Shown here: one piece after another, positions 15,966-57,917 of the stretch
Position numbering within the stretch: position 1 is the first letter of the stretch
How the letters are laid out: each line of letters begins with the position of its first letter
Assembly: GCA_035546615.1 (NCBI GenBank)
Contig: DASZWM010000006.1
Span: forward strand, 1-64,000
Source: Minisyncoccota bacterium
GTDB lineage: Bacteria > Patescibacteriota > Minisyncoccia > Phycocordibacterales > SBAW01
Direction of reading: 5' to 3'
DNA length: 64,000 nucleotides
Program-made: the position numbers and the translations under genes
Notes under the pieces: model-generated
The model's input: the letters and a program-made list of their open reading frames with translations, nothing else
Database searches by the model: none
What the model was told of the DNA's origin: nothing

Positions 15966-16727
15966 TTGAGCGATACTTTACGAATCCGTATGTCAGACAC
16001 GCCTACCGGCCACATCCATCCGATTTCAAGCCTTATCCGCGAGGCAAACCGCATATTTGCGGGCATGGGATTCTCCTTCGCCGAGGGCCCGCTCCTGGAG
16101 ACAGAATGGTACAACTTCGACGCGCTCAACGTGCCGAAGGACCATCCCGCGCGCGACATGCAGGACACCTTTTTTATAAAGGACGCGCCGGGCCACGTAT
16201 TGCGCACGCACACCTCGCCTGTCCAGGTGCGCTATATGGAAGCGCAGGCGAAGAAGGGCATCATGCCGCCGTATCGCATCATCGTGCCGGGCCGCGCGTT
16301 CCGCAACGAGGCGACCGACATGACGCACGAGGCCGAGTTCTTCCAGATAGAAGGGCTGGCGGTCGGGCCTGACATCACGCTTGGCAATCTCAAGGGCACG
16401 CTCGAGCAATTCTTCAAGGAATTATTCAAAGGCTCGGTCGAAGTGCGCTTCCGCCCGAGCTTCTTCCCGTTCGTCGAGCCGGGAGTCGAGGTTGATATGC
16501 GCCTGAGCGGCAATGACGTGCCCGAAAAGCTCAAGGATAAGTGGATAGAGATAATGGGCGCCGGCATGGTGCATCCGAATGTGCTAAAGAGCGCTGGGGT
16601 AGATCCGGTTCAGTACCGCGGTTTCGCCTTCGGCATGGGCCTCGACCGCCTCGCGATGCTCCGGTGGGGCATCGACGATATCCGCCTCATGCACTCCGCC
16701 GACCTGCGCTTCATCAATCAATTCTAG
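15966..16727 (+). CDS. pheS: Phenylalanyl-tRNA synthetase alpha subunit, catalytic core only (N-terminal coiled-coil arm absent)
   Basis: Class II core motifs (DHPARDMQDTFF; FRNEATDMTHEAEFFQIEG; GMGLDRLAML); 253 aa. Confidence 0.88.
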   Translation: MSDTLRIRMSDTPTGHIHPISSLIREANRIFAGMGFSFAEGPLLETEWYNFDALNVPKDHPARDMQDTFFIKDAPGHVLRTHTSPVQVRYMEAQAKKGIMPPYRIIVPGRAFRNEATDMTHEAEFFQIEGLAVGPDITLGNLKGTLEQFFKELFKGSVEVRFRPSFFPFVEPGVEVDMRLSGNDVPEKLKDKWIEIMGAGMVHPNVLKSAGVDPVQYRGFAFGMGLDRLAMLRWGIDDIRLMHSADLRFINQF

Positions 16728-16729
16728 AT

Positions 16730-17029
16730 ATGTGGAATATTGATTGGAGCTTAATAGGAATCGTAGGTCTTGCAGTAGCCACTATGTCTATTGCTATTAA
16801 GATTATCGGAGTACCTGACCAGATAAAAAGGAATTATCGTCGCAAATCAACGGAAGGAGTTTCTCTTTTATTCTATGTAATGTCTTTTGCCACTTATTTT
16901 CTCTGGGCATTATATGGATTTTTAAAAGATGATTGGGTTGTGTTTCTCGCTCAAGGTTCTTTAGGCTGTGTCACAAGTGGCATCATTCTTTGGCAATTTT
17001 TTGTGTATAGAAAAAACAAAAAGATATGA
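16730..17029 (+). CDS. SemiSWEET / PQ-loop family small transporter (AT-rich insert in pheST operon)
   Basis: 99 aa, 3 TM; architecture and motifs parallel to SemiSWEETs (…IGVPDQIKRNYRRKSTEGVSLLFYVM…LWALYGFLKDD…); stop overlaps pheT start (ATGA). Confidence 0.6.
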   Translation: MWNIDWSLIGIVGLAVATMSIAIKIIGVPDQIKRNYRRKSTEGVSLLFYVMSFATYFLWALYGFLKDDWVVFLAQGSLGCVTSGIILWQFFVYRKNKKI

Positions 17030-23720: not shown

Positions 23721-24344
23721 ATGACCCAGACTCACGGCAAAAAGCAGAGTGCAGCGGCGAAGACGGGGGCATTCCTGCTCACCTTCGTTATGCTCTTTGC
23801 TATTACGTACGGCTTCCTCGCGGTTGTCGACGTGTTGCCTGAGGACGGTCAAAAGGACGCGGCACCTTCCCATATCGCAGCGCAGGACGCAGGCGCTATA
23901 GAGGCTCCGGTTCGCGTGAAGGCTCTTGATGTCGGGCTTGATGCCAATGTCACGAACCCGAACACGACCGACCTCGACGCTTTGGACGCGGCGCTTGAAA
24001 ACGGCGCAGTGCGCTATCCGACCTCGGCGATGCTTGGCCAGGAGGGTACGGTGCTCCTTTTCGGGCACTCGTCCTACCTGCCGGTCGTGTACCACCAGTA
24101 CTACAAGACCTTCAATAAGGTGCAGAACCTTACGAAAGGCCAGGTAATAAGCGTCTATTCCGGCACCATGGAATACCGCTATGCGGTCACGAATGTCCGG
24201 GTTGCCGATGCGACCGAGGATGTGGTAGAACTTGCATCAAACGGCAAGCACCTTGTCTTGGTCACTTGCGACTCGTTCAAGTCCAAATCCAGCCGCTTCG
24301 TGGTTACAGCGGACTTTGTAGGGACGTATTCTCTCGCCAACTAA
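23721..24344 (+). CDS. Sortase-family transpeptidase
   Basis: N-terminal TM anchor; LLFGHSS (His) and LVLVTCDSF (TLxTC catalytic Cys) motifs; 207 aa. Confidence 0.65.
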   Translation: MTQTHGKKQSAAAKTGAFLLTFVMLFAITYGFLAVVDVLPEDGQKDAAPSHIAAQDAGAIEAPVRVKALDVGLDANVTNPNTTDLDALDAALENGAVRYPTSAMLGQEGTVLLFGHSSYLPVVYHQYYKTFNKVQNLTKGQVISVYSGTMEYRYAVTNVRVADATEDVVELASNGKHLVLVTCDSFKSKSSRFVVTADFVGTYSLAN

Positions 24345-24480: not shown

Positions 24481-24873
24481 ATGAACGACCACGGTAAAAA
24501 GGGGGTTCTGAAGCAAGTCATTGCTGAGGACCTCGGTGGCAAGACTCAGAAGTGGTGGCAAGGCAAGCTGCATGTTTACATGCGGCAAACCGAGCTTGCC
24601 CGGGAAGATCTTACAACGGTCAAAACCGAACTCGCAGCTGCTGTCGCCAAGGGCGAATCGGCCAAGAGCCAGGTTGCAGCCCTGGAAGAGCGCGTTACTC
24701 GCCTCGAAACCGAACTGGCTGAAGCCGGACGGAAAGAGAGCGAGTTCCGCGCGCAGATCGCTGAACTGGAAACGGAACAGTGGGAACCTGGTGATGTTGA
24801 AGATATCTTCAACATGATGACGGGTCCCTGGGAGACTGCCATCGCCAGCATGGAAAAGGAGCACGGGCTTTGA
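24481..24873 (+). CDS. Coiled-coil protein
   Basis: Heptad-rich ELA/ELE repeats; overlaps next ORF by 4 nt. Confidence 0.45.
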   Translation: MNDHGKKGVLKQVIAEDLGGKTQKWWQGKLHVYMRQTELAREDLTTVKTELAAAVAKGESAKSQVAALEERVTRLETELAEAGRKESEFRAQIAELETEQWEPGDVEDIFNMMTGPWETAIASMEKEHGL

Positions 24874-25757
24874 AAGATTCGTATCACAAGGCATTCGCGA
24901 CCCTGATCCTGTTCGGCGGGGTTCTGATTATCGGTGCCTGCCTTTACTGGGCTGGGGGAGTGGGCCGCGGTGGCCAGCTGACTCAGGACCAGGTCAATGC
25001 GCAAATCGCAGCCAAGGTTCCGACCAAGGAAGCGATCGTTGCAGGCATCGTCGCTGATCCGAACTTCACTACCGCCGCAAAAGCGGCAGTGAAGCCGGAA
25101 CTCGACACAAAGGCCAACATCGTCGACGTCATGTTCAAGAATGACTTCGAGGGCCTGGTCAAGCCGATCAACGACCGCCTCGCGGCGAACGAAACCGCTG
25201 TAGCGTCGAAGGTCGAGCAATCGGCCTTCGACGAAGAGTTCAAGCCTCTGAACGACAAGATTGCCGCGCTTGAGCCGAGGGTGAAAACCCTCGAAGATGC
25301 GCAGCAGGAAGCTCCGGCGCCTACGGCCGAAGCCGCTCCGCGTTCCAATCCGGATACGGCGGACGCAGTAACTTCACCGGTCGCCGGCAACCCGCCGGCG
25401 ACCAGCGATGACAGCTACGCGTCGTCGCACTACATCTCGATGAATGGCTACCGGCCGTGGACGAACTCGACGGCTTCCGAGCCTACAGAGAAGCCCAGCC
25501 GCGACGCCGCCTGGATGGATCGTATCGTGGCCAAGTGCCACATCGACCCGCCCGATCTGGAGACCGGAAAGTCCGAGATGAACATGGAGATGATCCATAA
25601 GACTCCGGACGACGTTCTCCAGAAGCTCTACGACGGGTGCCTAACCGAGGAGCAATACCAAGCCTCGTTGGACATCCCGACCGAAACCACAGAGATTTCA
25701 GTCTCATCAATACCTGAACCTACACCCGAAGAGATGAGTATCCTCGAAGGCTTCTAG
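24870..25757 (+). CDS. Membrane-anchored coiled-coil protein
   Basis: N-terminal TM, central coiled coil, acidic C-terminus; translationally coupled to the upstream ORF. Confidence 0.45.
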   Translation: MKDSYHKAFATLILFGGVLIIGACLYWAGGVGRGGQLTQDQVNAQIAAKVPTKEAIVAGIVADPNFTTAAKAAVKPELDTKANIVDVMFKNDFEGLVKPINDRLAANETAVASKVEQSAFDEEFKPLNDKIAALEPRVKTLEDAQQEAPAPTAEAAPRSNPDTADAVTSPVAGNPPATSDDSYASSHYISMNGYRPWTNSTASEPTEKPSRDAAWMDRIVAKCHIDPPDLETGKSEMNMEMIHKTPDDVLQKLYDGCLTEEQYQASLDIPTETTEISVSSIPEPTPEEMSILEGF

Positions 25758-25796
25758 CCAAGGTTCTCGTCTCCTCGATAATTGGAGTGAAGGAAG

Positions 25797-26069
25797 ATGA
25801 ATCGGAAGATAATCGGACTATTCTTTCTCGCTGCGATGACCGCCTCGGCCACAGCCGGCCAGAGCGTTCCTCCGCCAACCGGGCAAGAGCTCGAGGTGTT
25901 CCGGAACCGCGCTCAGCTGGTTCTCGGACACCACCTCGACGACTACTACTTCATGGGGCATAACGCGGGGCCGCCGCCGCGTCCCGGCTGCGTTCTCGAC
26001 AAGCGGGTGAAGGATCCGCATGTTCCGAACCTCTACCATGCGGGCTGGCGTTGCCCGAAACAGCACTGA
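25797..26069 (+). CDS. Small secreted hypothetical protein
   Basis: Signal peptide; followed by a 31-nt perfect palindrome. Confidence 0.35.
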   Translation: MNRKIIGLFFLAAMTASATAGQSVPPPTGQELEVFRNRAQLVLGHHLDDYYFMGHNAGPPPRPGCVLDKRVKDPHVPNLYHAGWRCPKQH

Positions 26070-26091
26070 CGTTCTTCGTTACTCTTTGTGC

Positions 26092-26122
26092 GCAGAGCGA
26101 TCGATATGATCGATCGCTCTGC
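26092..26122. promoter_or_regulatory. 31-nt perfect palindrome GCAGAGCGATCGAT-atg-ATCGATCGCTCTGC
   Basis: Read directly; between small secreted ORF and the repeat-protein gene; not followed by a clean T-run. Confidence 0.4.
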
Positions 26123-26232
26123 CACAAAATTTTTTCGCTATTTTCTGATTACAAATCTCTGTACGAGGTTTGTAGCCAGACTCTCGCGAAGGGAGTCGAG
26201 ATTATTACTAGTTTGATTTAGAAGAAAGTATT

Positions 26233-27531
26233 ATGAACAGCAATATTATAAACATAGGTCGTAAGATAAGCGTTGCTCTTATAGCGCTTATAGTTCTCGT
26301 GTTGCCTTTCGCTTCGGTGCAGGCAGCTGACTACTCTGACTATGATTATGTCGGGACCTCGTATTATGGTTCTGACTCTTCTAGCGATTACGTCGGGACT
26401 TCCTATTATGATTCCGGTTCTTCAAATAGTGGGAGCGATTACGTAGGAACGTCTTACTATACTCCTGATACTTCCAATGACTATGATTACGTTGGAACTT
26501 CGTACTATGAAGATAACTCTTCTGACTATGATTATGTCGGAACCTCCTATTATGGCTCTGGCTGCACCACGAACTGTGGCGGCGGTGGAGGTGGCGGCGG
26601 GGGCGGCGGATGCCGTTCTAACTGCACCCCTCCTCCTCCGAAGCCGGCCCCGGTTTGCGACCTCTCGGTCAGCCCTTCGCGCGTAGATTACGGCGATTCC
26701 GTAACTATCTCCTGGACCACGTCCAACGCCATCAGCGCCTTCCTCGCCGGTTTCGGCACGGTGTCCACTAACGGCTCCCGCACCAGCGGCGCTATCTATG
26801 GCACCAAGACCTACACTCTTACCGCGACCGCAAGCGGCGGCCGCACGGTAACCTGCTCCAAGACCGTTACAGTCGAGCGCGAGCATGAGCACACGCCCGA
26901 TCTCGAGTGCAAGCTTAAGGCTTCCGACACGAGCATCGAGCGCGGAGACTCGGTCCGCATCACCTGGTCTAGCGACGGCGCTGACTACGGCTACATCACT
27001 CCGGATATCGGTGATGTCGATGAAAGCGGTTCCGACACGGTAGAACCTCGCTCTGATACGACTTACAAGGGTACCTTCTACAACGACGACGGCGACAAGG
27101 TTACCTGCTCGGTCAAGGTAAACGTTGACCGCGAGTACAATCCGCCGGTCTACGAGAATCCGACTCCGTACATTAACCTCTCCGCTGTTCCGTACACCGG
27201 CCTTGACCTCGGTCCTGTCGGTACGGTTCTCTACTGGGCGTTCCTCATCGCATGGTGCCTCGTTGCCGCATACCTTATCGCGGTCAAGCGCGTCCACATG
27301 AGCGTGTACCGCTGGTACAAGAAGGCGCTCTTCGGCGAGGAGGTGCACTTCGCGCCGGCGCAGGAAGTCTCCTTCGCAGGGTTCTCCCACGCTGATGTCG
27401 CAAAGCTCGCAGAGATGCTTCGCGGCGCAGTCGCTCCCTCGCACGCTTCGGCACCTGTTGCTGCAGCTCCCGCAGGCGATGCGATAGACCCGTTCATCCT
27501 CTCGCAGATCCATCGCACTCCGCGCTCCTAA
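26233..27531 (+). CDS. Surface repeat protein: 5x DYVGTSYY repeats, poly-Gly/Cys spacer, two Ig-like C...C domains, TM, cytoplasmic tail
   Basis: Signal peptide; repeats D-Y-(D-Y)-V-G-T-S-Y-Y separated by S/D-rich spacers; CGGGGGGGGGGGGC; PPPPKP; two ~70-aa Cys-bounded beta-rich modules; VLYWAFLIAWCLVAAYLIAV TM. 5' third is AT-rich. Confidence 0.5.
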   Translation: MNSNIINIGRKISVALIALIVLVLPFASVQAADYSDYDYVGTSYYGSDSSSDYVGTSYYDSGSSNSGSDYVGTSYYTPDTSNDYDYVGTSYYEDNSSDYDYVGTSYYGSGCTTNCGGGGGGGGGGGCRSNCTPPPPKPAPVCDLSVSPSRVDYGDSVTISWTTSNAISAFLAGFGTVSTNGSRTSGAIYGTKTYTLTATASGGRTVTCSKTVTVEREHEHTPDLECKLKASDTSIERGDSVRITWSSDGADYGYITPDIGDVDESGSDTVEPRSDTTYKGTFYNDDGDKVTCSVKVNVDREYNPPVYENPTPYINLSAVPYTGLDLGPVGTVLYWAFLIAWCLVAAYLIAVKRVHMSVYRWYKKALFGEEVHFAPAQEVSFAGFSHADVAKLAEMLRGAVAPSHASAPVAAAPAGDAIDPFILSQIHRTPRS

Positions 27532-27590
27532 AGCGCCGAAGCGGATGCCTCTGCGCAAGCAGGGAACAAGCCTCCAAAATATTGTCAGCA

Positions 27591-27617
27591 AAATCCCGCC
27601 GTATGGCGGGATTTTGC
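27591..27617. terminator. Bidirectional terminator AAAATCCCGCC-gtat-GGCGGGATTTT
   Basis: A/T tracts on both sides of GC stem; between convergent repeat-protein gene and thrS. Confidence 0.6.
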
Positions 27618-27652: not shown

Positions 27653-28900
27653 TTATTTGCGCTCGGCTATCTCTTCCTTCAGTTTTGAAACTATTTCGGC
27701 AATGGGGAGTGCTCCAAGTTTGCCTTCGCGGCCCTCAAGGCTTGCGGTGTTGGCTGCAACTTCCGCGTCGCCGATCACAAGCGTGTAGGGGATTTTCTGC
27801 GTCTTTGCCTCGCGTATCTTCTTGCCTAGGCTCTCATTGCTTTCGTCGATGTCCGCGCGGATGCCAGCCCTCTTGAGCTCCTGCGCGACCTTTGCGGCAA
27901 ATTCTTTGTGCGGCTCGGCAATAGGAATGACGCGAGCCTGAAGGGGAGAAAGCCAGGTGGGAAGCGTGCCGTCGTAGTGCTCAAGCAGTACCGCGATGCA
28001 GCGCTCGAGGCTGCCGGCTATAGCCGCGTGCACCATCACGATGCGCTCCTTCTCGCCCTTTTCATTGATGCAGGTAAGGTCGAAGCGCTCGGGGATGTTC
28101 ATGTCGAGCTGGATGGTCGCGACCTGCCACTCGCGCCCGGCGGAATTCTTTGCCATGAAATCGAGCTTGGGCCCGTAGAGCGCCGCCTCGCCCGGGCCTT
28201 CAAACGTGTCGGCCCCGCGTTCCTCGGCAAGGCTGCGCAACTCGCTCTCGGCCTTGTCCCATATCTCCGGGGTACCTAGATATTTCTCGGGAGTCGCCGG
28301 GTCGCGGAAGGAAAGCCGTATACGCAATGTGAAGCCGAATGTCTTGTAGAAGGTGTCAACGATATCCCAGATCTTTAGGAATTCCTCGCGCACCTGACTA
28401 GTGCGGCAGAATACGTGTGCGTCGTCCTGAGCAAAACCCAAAACGCGAGTGAGGCCGCCAAGCTCTCCGGACTGCTCGTCGCGGTAGACCATGGTGGTCT
28501 CGGCGTAGCGCTGCGGCATCTCGCGGTACGAGAACGGCCGCCGCGCGAATATCTGCGTGTGGTGCGGGCAATTCATCGGCTTCATCGCGTACTCGCGGCC
28601 CTCGCGCGACGTTATCTTGAAGAGGTCATCGGCGAACTTTTCCCAGTGGCCGCTTGTCTCATAGAGGTCTTTCTTGGTGATGTGGGGGATGGTGACGCGC
28701 TCGTAGCCTCGCGCTTCGCGCATCTCCCAAATAAAGCGGTCGAGCTCCTGGCGCAGAATAGTGCCGCGCGGGGTCCACAGCGGCAGGCCCGAGCCGACGA
28801 GGTCGGAGAAGGTGAAGAGGTCGAGCTCCTGGCCAATTTTGCGGTGGTCGCGTTCTTCCATAGATAGTTCCAAGAGTATCAAGTGTGGGGATTTTTGCAA
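27653..28900 (-). CDS. thrS: Threonyl-tRNA synthetase, catalytic + anticodon-binding domains only (no N-terminal TGS/editing domains)
   Basis: PMNCPHH, RVLGFAQDDAHVFC class II motifs; 415 aa versus ~640 aa canonical. Confidence 0.88.
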   Translation of the reverse strand: MQKSPHLILLELSMEERDHRKIGQELDLFTFSDLVGSGLPLWTPRGTILRQELDRFIWEMREARGYERVTIPHITKKDLYETSGHWEKFADDLFKITSREGREYAMKPMNCPHHTQIFARRPFSYREMPQRYAETTMVYRDEQSGELGGLTRVLGFAQDDAHVFCRTSQVREEFLKIWDIVDTFYKTFGFTLRIRLSFRDPATPEKYLGTPEIWDKAESELRSLAEERGADTFEGPGEAALYGPKLDFMAKNSAGREWQVATIQLDMNIPERFDLTCINEKGEKERIVMVHAAIAGSLERCIAVLLEHYDGTLPTWLSPLQARVIPIAEPHKEFAAKVAQELKRAGIRADIDESNESLGKKIREAKTQKIPYTLVIGDAEVAANTASLEGREGKLGALPIAEIVSKLKEEIAERK

Positions 28901-42660: not shown

Positions 42661-43500
42661 TTGCTTTTCCCGCCCTCCTTTATACTGTGGAGTATGTATC
42701 CTCCTGTTTCTGACCTGCTCGCAGAGCTCTCTTTATTTCCCGGAAGGGAAGACGGCTTGCGGAAAATTAAAAGGTATAGCAATGAGAAAGTAGCTTTTTA
42801 CCGCTCTTCTGATTTTTCTCATAGCAAGAGAGTGGCGTGGCTTGTATATAGTCTCATCCCATTATTATCAGAGGTAGATAAGACTTTTGATATAGGGCGC
42901 GCTGTGGCTATGGCGCTCGTGCACGACGATGCTGAACTGATAACGGGTGATCATCAAGCTGGTAATAAAAGCAAAATGACCAAAGAGCAGCTTGCTGCAA
43001 TTGCTGACGAAGAACGTGAAGCGATTGCCGCTTTGGCAAAGAGATATCCAAAAACTCTCGGCGGATATGTCTATCAGGACCTAGTACAAGATCTCGCTGA
43101 TCTAAAGAATTCTGAAGCTCATTTTGTTAAGTACTTTGATCGTTTTGATGCTTTGGGGGAGACTTACCATGAACTCTTTGCAGGGAATGTGGTTTGGACG
43201 CAAAACGTAGTTAATGAGTGGGGCATCATTCCCACACCTTTTATGTATTACTACGATAGGCTGCCGCCCATGGTTGAGAAGTATCCGATCCTGACTGCTT
43301 TAAAAGGAAAACATGTATTCTTCGATGTCCCTGAAGCCAGAGAATGGGAATCATTTGTCCTGACTCGTCAGCCTCATACAAAGGATTCAATACTTGCGTC
43401 TACTGGTCATAGGCAATATGATGCCTGGCGCTCTGTTGTTATTGATTCTGCAGATCAAGAAGAAATCGCAAATCTCTACTCTCAACAAGAATACCTATGA
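42661..43500 (+). CDS. HD-domain phosphohydrolase (YfbR/5'-deoxynucleotidase-like), AT-rich insert
   Basis: H...HD motif (ALVHDDAELITGDH); gene visibly AT-rich relative to flanks; stop overlaps trmD start (ATGA). Confidence 0.65.
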   Translation: MLFPPSFILWSMYPPVSDLLAELSLFPGREDGLRKIKRYSNEKVAFYRSSDFSHSKRVAWLVYSLIPLLSEVDKTFDIGRAVAMALVHDDAELITGDHQAGNKSKMTKEQLAAIADEEREAIAALAKRYPKTLGGYVYQDLVQDLADLKNSEAHFVKYFDRFDALGETYHELFAGNVVWTQNVVNEWGIIPTPFMYYYDRLPPMVEKYPILTALKGKHVFFDVPEAREWESFVLTRQPHTKDSILASTGHRQYDAWRSVVIDSADQEEIANLYSQQEYL

Positions 43501-44315: not shown

Positions 44316-51293
<6,978 letters not shown>

Positions 51294-57203: not shown

Positions 57204-57917
57204 TTATTGAGCCGTAGTAGAGGCGTTCTGGACCGCCGGGTTGCCCTGGAGCACCGCGTCGATAGCCGCGCGCATGGAGTCGTAGGGCTGGTTGCCCGCA
57301 AGCGTTACCGCTTCGCCGCCGACCATGATGAGCGTGAACGGCGTCCCCTGGGCACCGAGCGCGAGGGCCTCATTGTAGGAGTCGGTTATCTTTTTGGTGT
57401 ACTTGCCGCTGTTGAGGCAGGTGTTGAACGCGTTCACATCAAGCCCGATACCCTGCGCGATTATGGGAAGCTGGGCCAGATCGAGGCCGTTGTTGGACGG
57501 CGTCACTTCGAACACCTTCTCGACGAACTGCCAGTATGCCGTGTTGCCGCCCAGGTCAGCCGCGCATTCCGCGCCTTCGGCCTCCTTGGGAGCCTTGGAG
57601 TGTATCGAGCCGAGCGGGAAGGGGCGCTGGACCCACGCCACGTTGCCGGAGGCGCCGTAGTAGCTCATAACCTGGTTCATCGTGCCTTCGAACGTCTTGC
57701 AGTGCGGGCACTCAAGATCCATGTATTCGACGACCTTTACCGCGGCGCCGGGGTTCCCCAGGATATGGTCTATAGACGGATCATACTCGCGCGCCGTAAC
57801 CGTGGTGGACGCATTCCCGTTGGTCGGGACGTTTACCTTGCCGACCAGGAACACTGCGCCTGCGATAAGCAACCCTGCGACGATAATGGTAACGGGCAAT
57901 ACGTATTGGCTTTTCAT
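57204..57917 (-). CDS. DsbA-family thiol:disulfide oxidoreductase (membrane-anchored)
   Basis: N-terminal TM; CPHCK thioredoxin-fold active site; 237 aa. Confidence 0.75.
   Translation of the reverse strand: MKSQYVLPVTIIVAGLLIAGAVFLVGKVNVPTNGNASTTVTAREYDPSIDHILGNPGAAVKVVEYMDLECPHCKTFEGTMNQVMSYYGASGNVAWVQRPFPLGSIHSKAPKEAEGAECAADLGGNTAYWQFVEKVFEVTPSNNGLDLAQLPIIAQGIGLDVNAFNTCLNSGKYTKKITDSYNEALALGAQGTPFTLIMVGGEAVTLAGNQPYDSMRAAIDAVLQGNPAVQNASTTAQ

What the first reader, a model, noticed from the sequence alone, without database searches (positions are those of the whole stretch)
26335..26600. Mosaic surface gene: AT-rich 5' module encoding five DYVGTSYY repeats and a poly-Gly/Cys hinge fused to a GC-rich Ig-like body
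The first ~330 nt of the gene (signal peptide plus repeats D-Y-(D-Y)-V-G-T-S-Y-Y with variable S/D/N spacers) are visibly AT-rich. The run then ends in CGGGGGGGGGGGGC, and the rest of the gene is GC-rich. Composition discontinuity inside one ORF plus tandem repeats suggests cassette exchange or repeat-number variation of an exposed tyrosine-rich module.
Basis: seen in the sequence. Interest (0 to 1): 0.5.

Follow-up and report, generated by a model that had tools for sequence, protein, structure and literature searches.

The report
Tyrosine-rich tip on sortase-linked surface protein
This gene from an uncultured, ultra-small (Paceibacteria) bacterium encodes a cell-surface stalk with a tip of five identical tyrosine-rich peptide copies; the tip differs completely between related species and is written in unusually AT-rich codons, which makes it a plausible but untested partner-binding module.

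Summary
Gene 26233..27531 (+, 432 aa) encodes a signal peptide, five exact DYVGTSYY copies, a Cys/Gly hinge (11 Gly, not 12), two Ig-like domains, then VPYTG, a membrane helix and a conserved tail. GC3 is 0.40 in codons 1-109 and 0.74 afterwards. This is the lowest 78-codon window of any gene call in the window.

The composition does not indicate a foreign cassette. Relatives with other repeat units show the same 5' dip, as does the vertically inherited signal peptide.

The five peptide copies are identical, but their third codon positions agree only 49% of the time. They are therefore old copies held by purifying selection, not a slippage-prone array.

The gene is mosaic in its similarity pattern. 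Its signal peptide and Ig body are closest to L081 (58% and 78%), whose repeat module is unalignable. Its repeat module matches the distant L003 and L083 (69% and 67%).

The gene is the positional orthologue of an undescribed Paceibacteria family (434 cluster representatives). In 48 of 50 loci it lies about 1.5 kb downstream of a sortase gene.

Best reading: a sortase-coupled surface stalk presenting a multivalent Tyr-rich binding tip that is replaced between lineages. Function is inferred. No strain-level data exist.

The parts
23721..24344 (+). Sortase gene (207 aa, N-terminal membrane anchor). It is the conserved upstream partner of the surface-protein gene.
   Evidence: Pfam Sortase PF04203, E=5.8e-19. 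It aligns to B. anthracis sortase 2KW8 with the GH, (L/V)TC and R motifs in register. It reaches no NCBIfam sortase class cutoff (best 33 bits against 160). A homologue lies upstream on the same strand in 48 of 50 loci that have at least 4.5 kb of upstream DNA, at a median gap of 1.5 kb.
24481..26069 (+). Three small or divergent genes between the sortase and the surface protein: a coiled-coil ORF at 24481-24873, a membrane-anchored coiled-coil ORF at 24870-25757, and a 90-aa secreted ORF at 25797-26069.
   Evidence: ORF list. Only coiled-coil-type weak Pfam hits were found. Relatives L081 and L083 have the same three-gene spacing. Sequence similarity was detectable only in L003.
26085..26135 (+). 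Strong hairpin followed by a T-run. It is the likely terminator of the upstream ORF, so the surface-protein gene has its own AT-rich promoter region (26136-26232).
   Evidence: RNA fold -32 kcal/mol, z=-6.5 against shuffles. The sequence is followed by AAAATTTTTT. The consensus promoter scan found no convincing -35/-10 pair.
26233..27531 (+). The whole gene: a 432-aa surface protein.
   Evidence: ORF. It is 100% identical to NCBI hypothetical protein VHD55_02850 of a Candidatus Paceibacterota MAG, which is annotated 22 aa shorter (P0001). The conserved N-terminus MNxxIxNIGRK in P0002, P0004 and P0035 supports the ATG at 26233.
26233..26325 (+). Sec-type signal peptide (aa 1-31, ...PFASVQA|AD).
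   Evidence: Basic n-region, hydrophobic helix 6-26 in the AF2 model and an A-x-A-type site. It is 58% identical to L081 and L084 but 29-32% to L003 and L083. GC3 is 0.45.
26326..26559 (+). Tyr/Ser/Asp/Gly-rich N-terminal module (aa 32-109). It holds five exact DYVGTSYY copies (26344-26367, 26386-26409, 26437-26460, 26485-26508, 26530-26553) separated by variable S/D/N/G spacers.
   Evidence: Composition is Y 24%, S 24%, D 16%, G 13%, T 9%. GC3 is 0.39. The copies are identical in peptide but have third-position identity 0.49. AF2 pLDDT is about 35 in two runs. There is no Pfam or NCBIfam hit at E<=10.
26560..26646 (+). Cys/Gly/Pro hinge: G-CTTNC-G11-CRSNC-TPPPPKP (two CxxxC units).
   Evidence: Translation. 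The number of C-x3-C-GGG units varies from 2 to 6 in relatives. TRF finds a period-3 GGC-like run at 79% match. The longest homopolymer is G5.
26647..27150 (+). Two Ig-like beta-sandwich domains (aa 139-222 and 223-306), each with an invariant Cys pair (C142/C208 and C226/C292).
   Evidence: AF2 pLDDT is about 90 with 8 strands per domain. Foldseek against PDB finds tandem FN3/Ig modules at E=1e-7 to 1e-5. The Cys residues are invariant in the 20-sequence alignment. Relatives carry 2-6 such domains, and some hit Pfam Ig_ADGRF3 or DUF11.
27166..27291 (+). Sorting-signal-like anchor: PYINLSAVPYTG-LDLGPVGT, a membrane helix and KR (aa 312-353). VPYTG lies at 27187-27201.
   Evidence: Invariant residues are P312, Y313, L316, V319, P320, Y321, T322, G323, L326, G327, P328, V329, G330, T331 and K352. 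AF2 models a helix from 327. It is the only [LVIAS]PxTG-plus-hydrophobic site in the 64-kb window.
27292..27528 (+). Conserved cytoplasmic tail (aa 354-432) ending in DPFILSQIHR.
   Evidence: D419, F421, S424, Q425 and R428 are invariant. phmmer with the anchor plus tail finds 434 cluster representatives at E<=1e-3, always matching at their C-terminus.
27653..28900 (-). Convergent thrS gene that marks the conserved downstream boundary of the locus.
   Evidence: tblastn hits in 74 of 80 related loci, directly downstream and convergent.

Best explanation
The gene encodes a Sec-exported cell-surface stalk of a Paceibacteria (CPR) bacterium. It belongs to a family with one conserved chromosomal slot: sortase, then 2-3 small genes, then this gene, then a convergent thrS.

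Anchoring (inferred). The C-terminal PYxxLSxVPYTG-LDLGPVGT motif, membrane helix and Lys/Arg hold the protein in the membrane. This segment is most likely the recognition site of the co-located sortase, which would cleave after Thr322 and attach the ectodomain to the envelope.

Stalk (shown as a fold prediction). Two disulfide-stapled Ig-like domains and a Cys/Gly/Pro hinge act as a spacer.

Tip (function inferred). The distal 78 residues are an acidic, probably unstructured Tyr/Ser/Asp/Gly arm carrying five identical DYVGTSYY peptides. I take this arm to be a multivalent binding or adhesive element for a partner surface, either host cell or glycan, with the repeated peptide as the specificity determinant.

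Evolution (shown). Within a lineage each peptide copy is held by strong purifying selection while synonymous sites are scrambled, so the array is genetically stable rather than slippage-prone. Between lineages the unit is replaced wholesale, or the array is lost. This gives a module whose relationships disagree with both of its flanks.

Composition (shown; cause not established). The AT-rich synonymous composition is a locally maintained, family-wide property of the first 100 or so codons. It is most extreme in this sub-clade and is not a footprint of recent foreign origin.
For: Architecture:
- Translation and alignment.
- AF2 model with two Ig-like domains at pLDDT about 90, a membrane helix from 327, and a disordered N-module.
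- Foldseek hits to tandem Ig/FN3 modules.

Sortase link:
- Pfam Sortase at 5.8e-19.
- H/C/R motifs aligned to 2KW8.
- A sortase gene upstream on the same strand in 48 of 50 loci, and thrS downstream in 74 of 80.
- VPYTG is invariant and is the only such site in the window.
- Méheust et al. 2019 (PMC6744442) report that sortases and MdbA-like disulfide oxidoreductases are enriched in CPR bacteria. A membrane-anchored DsbA-like gene lies at 57204-57917.

The Tyr-rich tip is a family hallmark: 151 of 218 distinct full-length members have at least 10% Tyr in their first 80 mature residues, with a median of 16%.

Purifying selection on the peptide:
- Five identical 8-mers have third-position identity 0.49.
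- L081 YESTYTPS shows the same (0.43, with TCN/AGY serine switches), as does L001 FYPEYDST (0.39).
- Across 31 family genes the mean is 0.50, and identical DNA copies are rare (5 of about 190 pairs).
- YVGTSYY is kept in four body clades: the window, L003, L083 and P0061.

Mosaic pattern (identity of the window to L081/L084/L003/L083):
- Signal peptide: 58/58/32/29.
- N-module: 33/46/69/67, against shuffled controls of 33-40.
- Ig body: 78/68/45/43.

Locally maintained low GC3.
Against: - No experiment or structure addresses binding, so the tip's function rests on position, composition and conservation only.
- The sorting signal is atypical. A conserved 79-residue tail follows the membrane helix, residues after TG (LDLGPVGT) are invariant, and no LPXTG-anchor HMM matches.
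- The sortase reaches no class cutoff.
- AF2's failure on the N-module may reflect the shallow alignment (4-20 sequences) rather than true disorder.
- The cause of the low GC3 is not established.
- Retention of an ancestral module could not be separated from ancient exchange.
Confidence: 0.55

Rival explanations
1. The N-terminal repeat module is an exchangeable cassette. It was swapped by recombination between Paceibacteria lineages, using the conserved signal-peptide end (A-Q-A-A-D) and the hinge start (G-C-T-x-N-C-G-G-G) as anchors. This would explain both the mosaic similarity and the foreign-looking composition.
For: - The module is discordant with both flanks. It is 69% and 67% identical to the distant L003 and L083, against 33% (the shuffle level) to L081. 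L081 is the closest relative in signal peptide, Ig body, sortase (78%) and DnaE (90%).
- All three DYVGTSYY modules have GC3 of about 0.39-0.40, whatever the GC3 of their body (0.74, 0.79, 0.50).
- YVGTSYY arrays are scattered over four body clades whose sister sequences carry other units.
- The flanks are conserved at the peptide level.
Against: - Third-position identity between the window, L003 and L083 motif codons is 0.31-0.39, which is random level. Any transfer is therefore too old to explain today's composition without a persistent local force.
- The vertically inherited signal peptide is AT-rich too.
- Relatives with unrelated units show the same dip.
- Ancestral retention combined with four or more lineage-specific replacements explains the same pattern.
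- No donor was found.
Confidence: 0.3
2. The protein is not a sortase substrate but a permanent single-pass membrane receptor. VPYTG-LDLGPVGT would be a structural juxtamembrane motif, and the conserved cytoplasmic tail would signal to, or dock with, an intracellular partner.
For: - A 79-residue tail with invariant D419, F421, S424, Q425 and R428 follows the membrane helix. That is unexpected for a segment discarded after sortase cleavage.
- Distant relatives (P0043, P0051, P0058, P0062) carry an even larger conserved C-terminal domain of about 250 aa.
- No LPXTG-anchor HMM hit was found.
- Residues after TG are invariant, unlike classical sorting signals.
Against: - A sortase gene lies upstream on the same strand in 48 of 50 loci across deep divergence.
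- P-x-T-G is invariant and is followed by a hydrophobic helix and K/R.
- This is the only candidate substrate near the sortase in 64 kb.
- The two readings are compatible if cleavage is regulated or if the remnant peptide has a role of its own.
Confidence: 0.25
3. The repeat array is a contingency locus. Copy number changes rapidly by slipped-strand mispairing or unequal recombination, giving phase or antigenic variation of the exposed tip.
For: The repeats are tandem and in frame, lie in an exposed part of a surface protein, and differ in copy number between species.
Against: - The DNA copies are only 60-77% identical to the reference copy, and no two are identical.
- Third-position identity is 0.49, and TRF sees only 1.9 copies.
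- The longest homopolymer is G5.
- Impure repeats are far more stable than pure ones (review PMC3899988).
- The same DNA divergence holds in 31 family genes.
Confidence: 0.05
4. The Tyr/Ser/Asp-rich region is a non-specific low-complexity spacer, for example a glycosylated or hydrated 'bristle'. The AT-rich codons would simply reflect relaxed selection on a fast-evolving, unimportant segment.
For: - No predicted structure (pLDDT about 35).
- The unit differs in almost every lineage, and about 20% of members (44 of 218) have under 5% Tyr there.
- Flatter codon usage is what relaxed codon selection would give.
Against: - Every one of the five 8-residue copies is identical although synonymous sites are saturated. 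This means strong purifying selection on the exact peptide.
- The same is seen for other units in other genomes.
- The exact YVGTSYY motif persists in four divergent clades, and the arrays are colinear.
- The spacers vary while the motifs do not.
Confidence: 0.12

Closest known systems
LPXTG-type sortase-anchored surface adhesins of Gram-positive bacteria (MSCRAMM-like proteins such as the Clf and Sdr families; comparison from general knowledge)
   Same: Both have an N-terminal Sec signal peptide, Ig-like beta-sandwich domains, a low-complexity tandem-repeat region, a C-terminal [LV]PxTG motif followed by a hydrophobic helix and basic residues, and a dedicated sortase encoded nearby.
   Different: - The repeat region here is at the distal N-terminal tip and is Tyr-rich. 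It is not a wall-proximal Ser-Asp spacer.
- The Ig domains carry conserved disulfide pairs.
- The motif is VPYTG with invariant flanks.
- A conserved 79-aa tail follows the membrane helix.
- No LPXTG-anchor HMM matches, and the sortase fits no class A-F model.
- The repeats are diverged at the DNA level.
Dedicated sorting-enzyme and cognate C-terminal sorting-domain systems (PEP-CTERM/exosortase, PGF-CTERM/archaeosortase, GlyGly-CTERM/rhombosortase; from general knowledge)
   Same: Both have a family-specific, HMM-recognisable tripartite C-terminal signal (signature motif, membrane helix, basic cluster) whose conservation extends beyond the minimal cleavage motif. Both are genetically coupled to the processing enzyme.
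   Different: The enzyme here is a sortase-fold cysteine transpeptidase (PF04203), not an exosortase or rhombosortase. The signal is not at the extreme C-terminus.
Tyr-rich binding or adhesive peptides: mussel foot protein decapeptide repeats, and the Tyr/Ser/Gly/Asp 'minimal code' of synthetic antibody paratopes (from memory; a resemblance, not a test)
   Same: Five residues (Y, S, D, G, T) make up 86% of the module. The short Tyr-containing units are repeated in tandem at an exposed position on an Ig-like scaffold with a Cys/Pro hinge.
   Different: There is no sequence homology, no evidence for DOPA or any other Tyr modification, no binding data, and the organism and context differ.
CPR protein families for cell-cell interaction described by Méheust et al. 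2019 (PMC6744442): sortase fam000526 and MdbA-like oxidoreductase fam000318
   Same: The sortase and a membrane-anchored DsbA-like oxidoreductase are both present in this window. That paper reports their enrichment in CPR bacteria.
   Different: The passages I read from that paper name no sortase substrate. The VPYTG family, its fixed locus and its Tyr-rich tip were not found in any paper searched.

Membership tests
Sortase substrate with a classical LPXTG cell-wall sorting signal | N-terminal Sec signal peptide | tested here: met
   Basic n-region, hydrophobic helix 6-26 and a VQA|A site. The N-terminus is conserved in homologues.
Sortase substrate with a classical LPXTG cell-wall sorting signal | LPXTG-like pentapeptide followed by a hydrophobic segment and basic residues | tested here: met
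   VPYTG (aa 319-323) is invariant. A helix starts at 327 and K352-R353 follow.
Sortase substrate with a classical LPXTG cell-wall sorting signal | Signal lies at the extreme C-terminus with only a short charged tail | tested here: not met
   79 further residues follow, with an invariant D-x-F-x-x-S-Q-x-x-R end.
Sortase substrate with a classical LPXTG cell-wall sorting signal | Match to the curated LPXTG-anchor model (NCBIfam/TIGRFAM) | tested here: not met
   No NCBIfam or Pfam hit for the whole protein at E<=1, or for the anchor region at E<=10.
Sortase substrate with a classical LPXTG cell-wall sorting signal | Cognate sortase with a catalytic His/Cys/Arg triad encoded in the genome or nearby | tested here: met
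   PF04203 at 5.8e-19. GH, LVTC and R align to 2KW8. Linked in 48 of 50 loci.
Sortase substrate with a classical LPXTG cell-wall sorting signal | Cleavage between T and G and covalent attachment to the envelope | not testable with these tools
   Needs biochemistry or proteomics.
Sortase-assembled Gram-positive pilin | Pilin-motif lysine, E-box or isopeptide CnaB-type domains, and a class C sortase | tested here: not met
   No invariant Lys in the ectodomain (the hinge PKP is absent in several relatives). The class C sortase model scores 25.5 bits against a cutoff of 160. No Cna or pilin Pfam hit was found.
Ig-like / FN3-like beta-sandwich (E-set) domains | Seven- to eight-stranded beta-sandwich fold | tested here: met
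   AF2 pLDDT is about 90 for residues 141-215 and 225-299. Foldseek hits CbhA FN3-like modules, GhpA Ig-like fragments and titin Z1Z2 at E=1e-7 to 1e-6. Relatives hit Pfam Ig_ADGRF3 or DUF11.
Contingency (phase-variable) repeat locus | Long run of identical or near-identical DNA units, or a homopolymer tract | tested here: not met
   Units are 60-77% identical to the reference copy. TRF sees 1.9 copies. The longest homopolymer is G5.
Cell-wall / choline-binding repeats (CW_binding_1) or other named aromatic repeat families | Match to the family HMM | tested here: not met
   No Pfam or NCBIfam hit at E<=10 for the window module or for the 8-copy P0061 module.
Recently acquired foreign DNA (compositional island) | Deviant composition confined to the acquired segment and absent from orthologues | tested here: not met
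   The dip also covers the vertically inherited signal peptide. It is present in relatives with other repeat units.

The most novel reading that the evidence does not exclude
Paceibacteria carry, at one fixed chromosomal slot next to a dedicated and unclassified sortase, a single surface protein whose distal Tyr-rich peptide array determines partner or host specificity. The array would be swapped as a cassette between lineages, between the conserved signal-peptide end and the CxxxC-Gly hinge. It would be kept genetically stable by codon-scrambled copies and encoded in deliberately AT-rich, slowly read codons that aid export of a sticky segment. The conserved post-cleavage tail would have a function of its own. 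This would be a previously undescribed adhesion and specificity system in CPR bacteria.
Probability: 0.15. Interest if true: 0.75.

Novelty: new variant of a known kind. Interest (0 to 1): 0.5.

Why it matters
CPR/Patescibacteria are thought to live attached to, or dependent on, other cells. The molecules that mediate and specify that contact are largely unknown outside type IV pili.

This locus offers a concrete candidate that can be found by synteny. It is a single sortase-linked surface protein, present at the same position across many Paceibacteria, with a tip that is replaced between lineages yet rigidly conserved within them. That is the pattern expected of a specificity determinant.

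The gene also gives a clean natural example of identical peptide repeats maintained with scrambled codons, and of a sub-genic, locally maintained drop in GC3. Both bear on how repeat stability and synonymous composition are shaped in bacteria.

If the tip is only a spacer, the finding reduces to an ordinary uncharacterised surface protein.

Tried and rejected
- Motif-family search. The 78-aa module searched against 5.8 billion proteins gave 236 word-sharing candidates, none at E<=0.01. The motif was then found only by regex inside family members already fetched.
- Strain-level variants. The protein search found nothing between 76% and 100% identity. The metagenome scan found one locus at 60% identity, with yet another N-terminal unit. 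Repeat-number polymorphism within a population could therefore not be tested.
- Pfam and NCBIfam on the whole protein, the N-module and the anchor gave no usable hit. BatD at E=0.13 was ignored.
- AF2 on the N-module plus hinge with a 4-sequence alignment gave pLDDT 35.6, so there was no fold to search.
- Literature searches returned nothing specific. The terms tried were VPYTG, tyrosine-rich with Patescibacteria, and sortase with Parcubacteria, Patescibacteria or Paceibacteria.
- The consensus promoter scan found no convincing promoter upstream.
- Rejected: that the AT-richness is only an amino-acid-composition effect. The GC3 and per-amino-acid codon tests show otherwise.
- Rejected: that it is the general 5' codon ramp. 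Other genes in the window dip only in codons 1-30 (mean 0.68) and are back to 0.75 in codons 31-110, against 0.39 here.
- Rejected: that the poly-Gly run is a slippery G-tract. It uses mixed GGN codons and the longest run is G5.
- Considered and not supported: a pilin role (see the membership test).
- Considered but not examined: targeting by a diversity-generating retroelement. No search for a reverse transcriptase was made.
Full report
WHAT IS THERE

The finding lies inside one ORF, window 26233..27531 on the + strand, 432 aa. Its product is 100% identical to a 'hypothetical protein' (VHD55_02850) of a Candidatus Paceibacterota metagenome-assembled genome. That record starts 22 residues later. 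The longer N-terminus (MNSNIINIGRK...) is conserved in homologues, so the ATG at 26233 is the better start, and the public annotation loses most of the signal peptide.

Read from the sequence, the alignment and the structure model, the layout is:
- signal peptide, aa 1-31 (...VQA|AD)
- Tyr-rich module, aa 32-109, with five exact DYVGTSYY copies at aa 38, 52, 69, 85 and 100
- hinge, aa 110-138 (G-CTTNC-G11-CRSNC-TPPPPKP)
- two Ig-like domains, aa 139-222 and 223-306, each with an invariant Cys pair
- PYINLSAVPYTG-LDLGPVGT, a membrane helix and KR, aa 312-353
- a 79-residue tail ending in DPFILSQIHR

It is encoded by mixed GGN codons, and the longest homopolymer in the region is G5.

IS THE COMPOSITION BREAK REAL?

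Yes, and it is synonymous.
- Codons 1-109 have GC 0.416 and GC3 0.40. Codons 139-432 have GC 0.609 and GC3 0.74.
- Within the same amino acids, Tyr is TAT/TAC 13/6 in the module against 1/14 in the body (p=4e-4). Ser codons ending in A/T versus G/C are 11/8 against 2/27 (p=2e-4).
- All 56 other ORF calls in the window have GC3 of at least 0.61 in their first 109 codons.
- The lowest 78-codon GC3 window found in any gene call is this module (0.38). The next lowest is 0.51.
- Other genes show only the usual short 5' ramp. Codons 1-30 average 0.68 and codons 31-110 average 0.75, against 0.39 here.

Two whole genes elsewhere in the window are also AT-rich: a SWEET/PQ-loop gene with GC3 0.33 and an HD-domain gene with GC3 0.39. 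The focal gene is the only case where a 5' segment of an otherwise high-GC3 gene is AT-rich.

THE FAMILY AND ITS LOCUS

A search of 5.8 billion proteins gave 128 relatives. A profile-free phmmer search with only the anchor and tail gave 434 cluster representatives at E<=1e-3 among 1.84 billion, and the match was always at their C-terminus. No Pfam or NCBIfam model covers the N-module or the anchor, and no searched paper mentions the motif.

Eighty loci from species-representative genomes were fetched, all Paceibacteria-type CPR (Adlerbacteria, Kaiserbacteria, Nomurabacteria and 'Paceibacterota'). In 74 of the 80, a convergent thrS lies directly downstream. In 48 of the 50 loci with at least 4.5 kb of upstream DNA, a sortase gene lies upstream on the same strand, at a median gap of 1.5 kb.

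The window's sortase (23721-24344) hits Pfam Sortase at 5.8e-19. It aligns to B. anthracis sortase 2KW8 with the GH, (L/V)TC and R motifs in register. It reaches no NCBIfam class cutoff. The focal protein is the only [LVIAS]PxTG-plus-hydrophobic candidate in the 64 kb.

A strong hairpin with a T-run at 26085-26135 (-32 kcal/mol, z=-6.5) separates the gene from the upstream ORF, so it is probably its own transcription unit.

Members of the family keep the anchor (P312, Y313, L316, VPYTG 319-323, LGPVGT 326-331, AAYL 345-348, K352) and the tail end (D419, F421, S424, Q425, R428). Their ectodomains differ widely. They have 2-6 Ig-like domains or none, and almost every lineage has its own N-terminal unit. 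Of 218 distinct full-length members, 151 have at least 10% Tyr in their first 80 mature residues, with a median of 16%.

STRUCTURE

With the 20-sequence alignment, AF2 gives two beta-sandwiches at pLDDT about 90 (strands 141-215 and 225-299) and a long helix from residue 327. Residues 25-126 have pLDDT about 35. Foldseek against PDB returns tandem FN3/Ig modules: CbhA, the GhpA 'grappling hook' fragments and titin Z1Z2, at E=1e-7 to 1e-6. A second AF2 run on the N-module plus hinge also gave no confident fold (pLDDT 35.6). This is consistent with disorder, but the alignments are shallow.

A membrane-anchored DsbA-like protein is encoded at 57204-57917. It fits the conserved Cys pairs and CxxxC units, and it fits the reported CPR enrichment of MdbA-like oxidoreductases and sortases (PMC6744442).

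HOW THE REPEATS EVOLVE

The five DYVGTSYY copies are identical as peptides, but their codons agree at third positions only 49% of the time. The 43-nt DNA units are 60-77% identical to the reference copy, and TRF sees only 1.9 copies.

The same holds for other units in other genomes:
- L081 YESTYTPS: 0.43, including switches between TCN and AGY serine codons
- L001 FYPEYDST: 0.39
- 31 family genes with at least three identical 7-mers: mean 0.50, with only 5 identical DNA pairs among about 190

The copies are therefore old and are held by purifying selection on the exact peptide. Impure repeats are much more stable than pure ones (PMC3899988), so a slippage-driven contingency locus is unlikely.

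IS THE GENE A MOSAIC?

In its similarity relationships, yes. L081 is the nearest relative by DnaE (90%), sortase (78%) and Ig body. The table gives the identity of the window to each relative.

| Segment | L081 | L084 | L003 | L083 |
|---|---|---|---|---|
| Signal peptide | 58 | 58 | 32 | 29 |
| N-module | 33 | 46 | 69 | 67 |
| Ig body | 78 | 68 | 45 | 43 |
| Anchor and tail | 76 | 77 | 73 | 64 |

Shuffled controls for the N-module give 33-40 (sd 4-5). The three DYVGTSYY arrays are colinear. A fourth array, with 8 copies, sits on yet another body type (P0061). Sister sequences of each carrier have other units or none: L002 beside L003, and P0035 beside P0022.

Two histories fit. One is an ancestral array kept in some lineages and replaced at least four times in others. 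The other is an old exchange of the module between lineages. Third-position identity between the window, L003 and L083 motif codons is 0.31-0.39, which is random level. That excludes a recent transfer but cannot separate the two histories.

WHAT THE AT-RICHNESS DOES AND DOES NOT MEAN

It is not a sign of a freshly imported cassette.
- The vertically inherited signal peptide shares it (GC3 0.45).
- Relatives with unrelated units show it: L081 0.66 vs 0.86, L084 0.44 vs 0.77, L003 0.40 vs 0.79, L001 0.50 vs 0.65.
- In 28 of 34 family genes the Tyr-rich region has lower GC3 than the rest of the gene (mean -0.08, Wilcoxon p=2e-6).
- Over 53 full-length genes, the first 90 codons sit about 0.09-0.105 below the remainder and return to baseline by about codon 150.

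Module GC3 tracks body GC3 overall (slope 0.66, r=0.60). The window, L003 and L084 are the largest outliers, at -0.33 to -0.39. Synonymous sites in the array are saturated, yet GC3 has stayed near 0.4 in a body at 0.74. The low value therefore looks locally maintained. The caveat is an unsampled low-GC donor.

I could not establish the cause. The candidates, all inference, are:
- selection for weakly structured or slowly translated 5' coding sequence in an exported, sticky segment
- relaxed codon selection
- reduced GC-biased gene conversion in a hypervariable segment that cannot pair with incoming DNA

MOST LIKELY MECHANISM

The protein is exported by Sec. It is held by the C-terminal helix and, most likely, processed by the neighbouring sortase at VPYTG. 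The Ig-like domains and the Cys/Gly hinge project the acidic Tyr/Ser-rich arm away from the cell. The five identical peptides give multivalent contact with a partner surface.

What is shown:
- the architecture
- the fold of the body
- the conserved linkage to the sortase
- the family-wide Tyr-rich tip
- purifying selection on the peptide copies
- lineage-to-lineage replacement
- the composition break

What is inferred:
- sortase cleavage
- disorder of the tip
- binding
- the role of the tip in specificity

The main structural objection to classical sortase anchoring is the conserved 79-residue tail and the invariant residues after TG. These could mean a permanent membrane receptor (rival, 0.25), or a remnant peptide with its own role.

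VERDICT

The object is a member of an undescribed CPR family that works like a sortase-anchored adhesin. It fails two defining features of the classical LPXTG signal. I therefore file it as a new variant of a known kind and score its interest as moderate.

Noticed in passing
window 44316-51293 (+): A single 2325-aa ORF carries the RNA polymerase beta domains (Rpb2 models, aa 60-1088) followed directly by the beta' domains (Rpb1 models, aa 1107-2203). This is an rpoB-rpoC fusion.
   Followed up: no
window 27653-28900 (-), compared with L008, L002, L003, L081 and L084: The short thrS (415 aa) is 91% identical to L008 and 85% to L002 and L003, but only 50% to L081 and L084. L081 and L084 are the closest genomes by DnaE (90% and 82%), sortase and the surface protein. 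Two divergent thrS types therefore occupy the same syntenic slot, which suggests in-place replacement.
   Followed up: partly
window 26233 versus the public annotation (P0001): The NCBI record for this protein starts 22 residues downstream (MLPFASVQAAD...), which removes most of the signal peptide. Homologues conserve the longer N-terminus.
   Followed up: yes
window 57204-57917 (-): A membrane-anchored DsbA/Thioredoxin_4 protein (E=1.3e-21). It is a likely extracytoplasmic disulfide-forming enzyme, relevant to the Cys pairs of the surface protein.
   Followed up: partly
window 16541-17029 (+) and 42661-43500 (+): Two whole genes have very low GC3 in a genome where GC3 is about 0.75: a SWEET/PQ-loop transporter (GC3 0.33) and a YfbR-like HD phosphohydrolase (GC3 0.39). 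They lie in the lowest-GC stretches of the window and may be acquired genes.
   Followed up: partly
L031, L052, L076, L078, L080 (second VPYTG gene about 0.7-1.4 kb downstream of the first): Some relatives carry two VPYTG-anchored genes in tandem. The second has a Gly/Asp-rich N-terminus with a CC motif and repeated CPxNTTGTYPNC units instead of Tyr-rich repeats.
   Followed up: no
P0043, P0051, P0058, P0062 (distant relatives): These have the same [LV]PYTGLDLGP anchor, but it is followed by a conserved C-terminal domain of about 250 aa (…TIDDIVKGLARE…VFALDDAYRA…TRAL…). This suggests that the intracellular part of the family can be large and functional.
   Followed up: no
window 24481-26069 (+); L081 2054-3852; L083 2060-3849: Three small genes always sit between the sortase and the surface-protein gene: a coiled-coil protein, a membrane-anchored coiled-coil protein and a short secreted protein. 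Their positions are conserved, but their sequences are almost unalignable. They may be further parts of the same surface apparatus.
   Followed up: partly
window 26422-27591 (-): A 389-aa antisense ORF overlaps the gene. It lost to the + strand gene in the gene calling and has no support of its own, so it is treated as a by-product of the GC-rich coding strand.
   Followed up: partly
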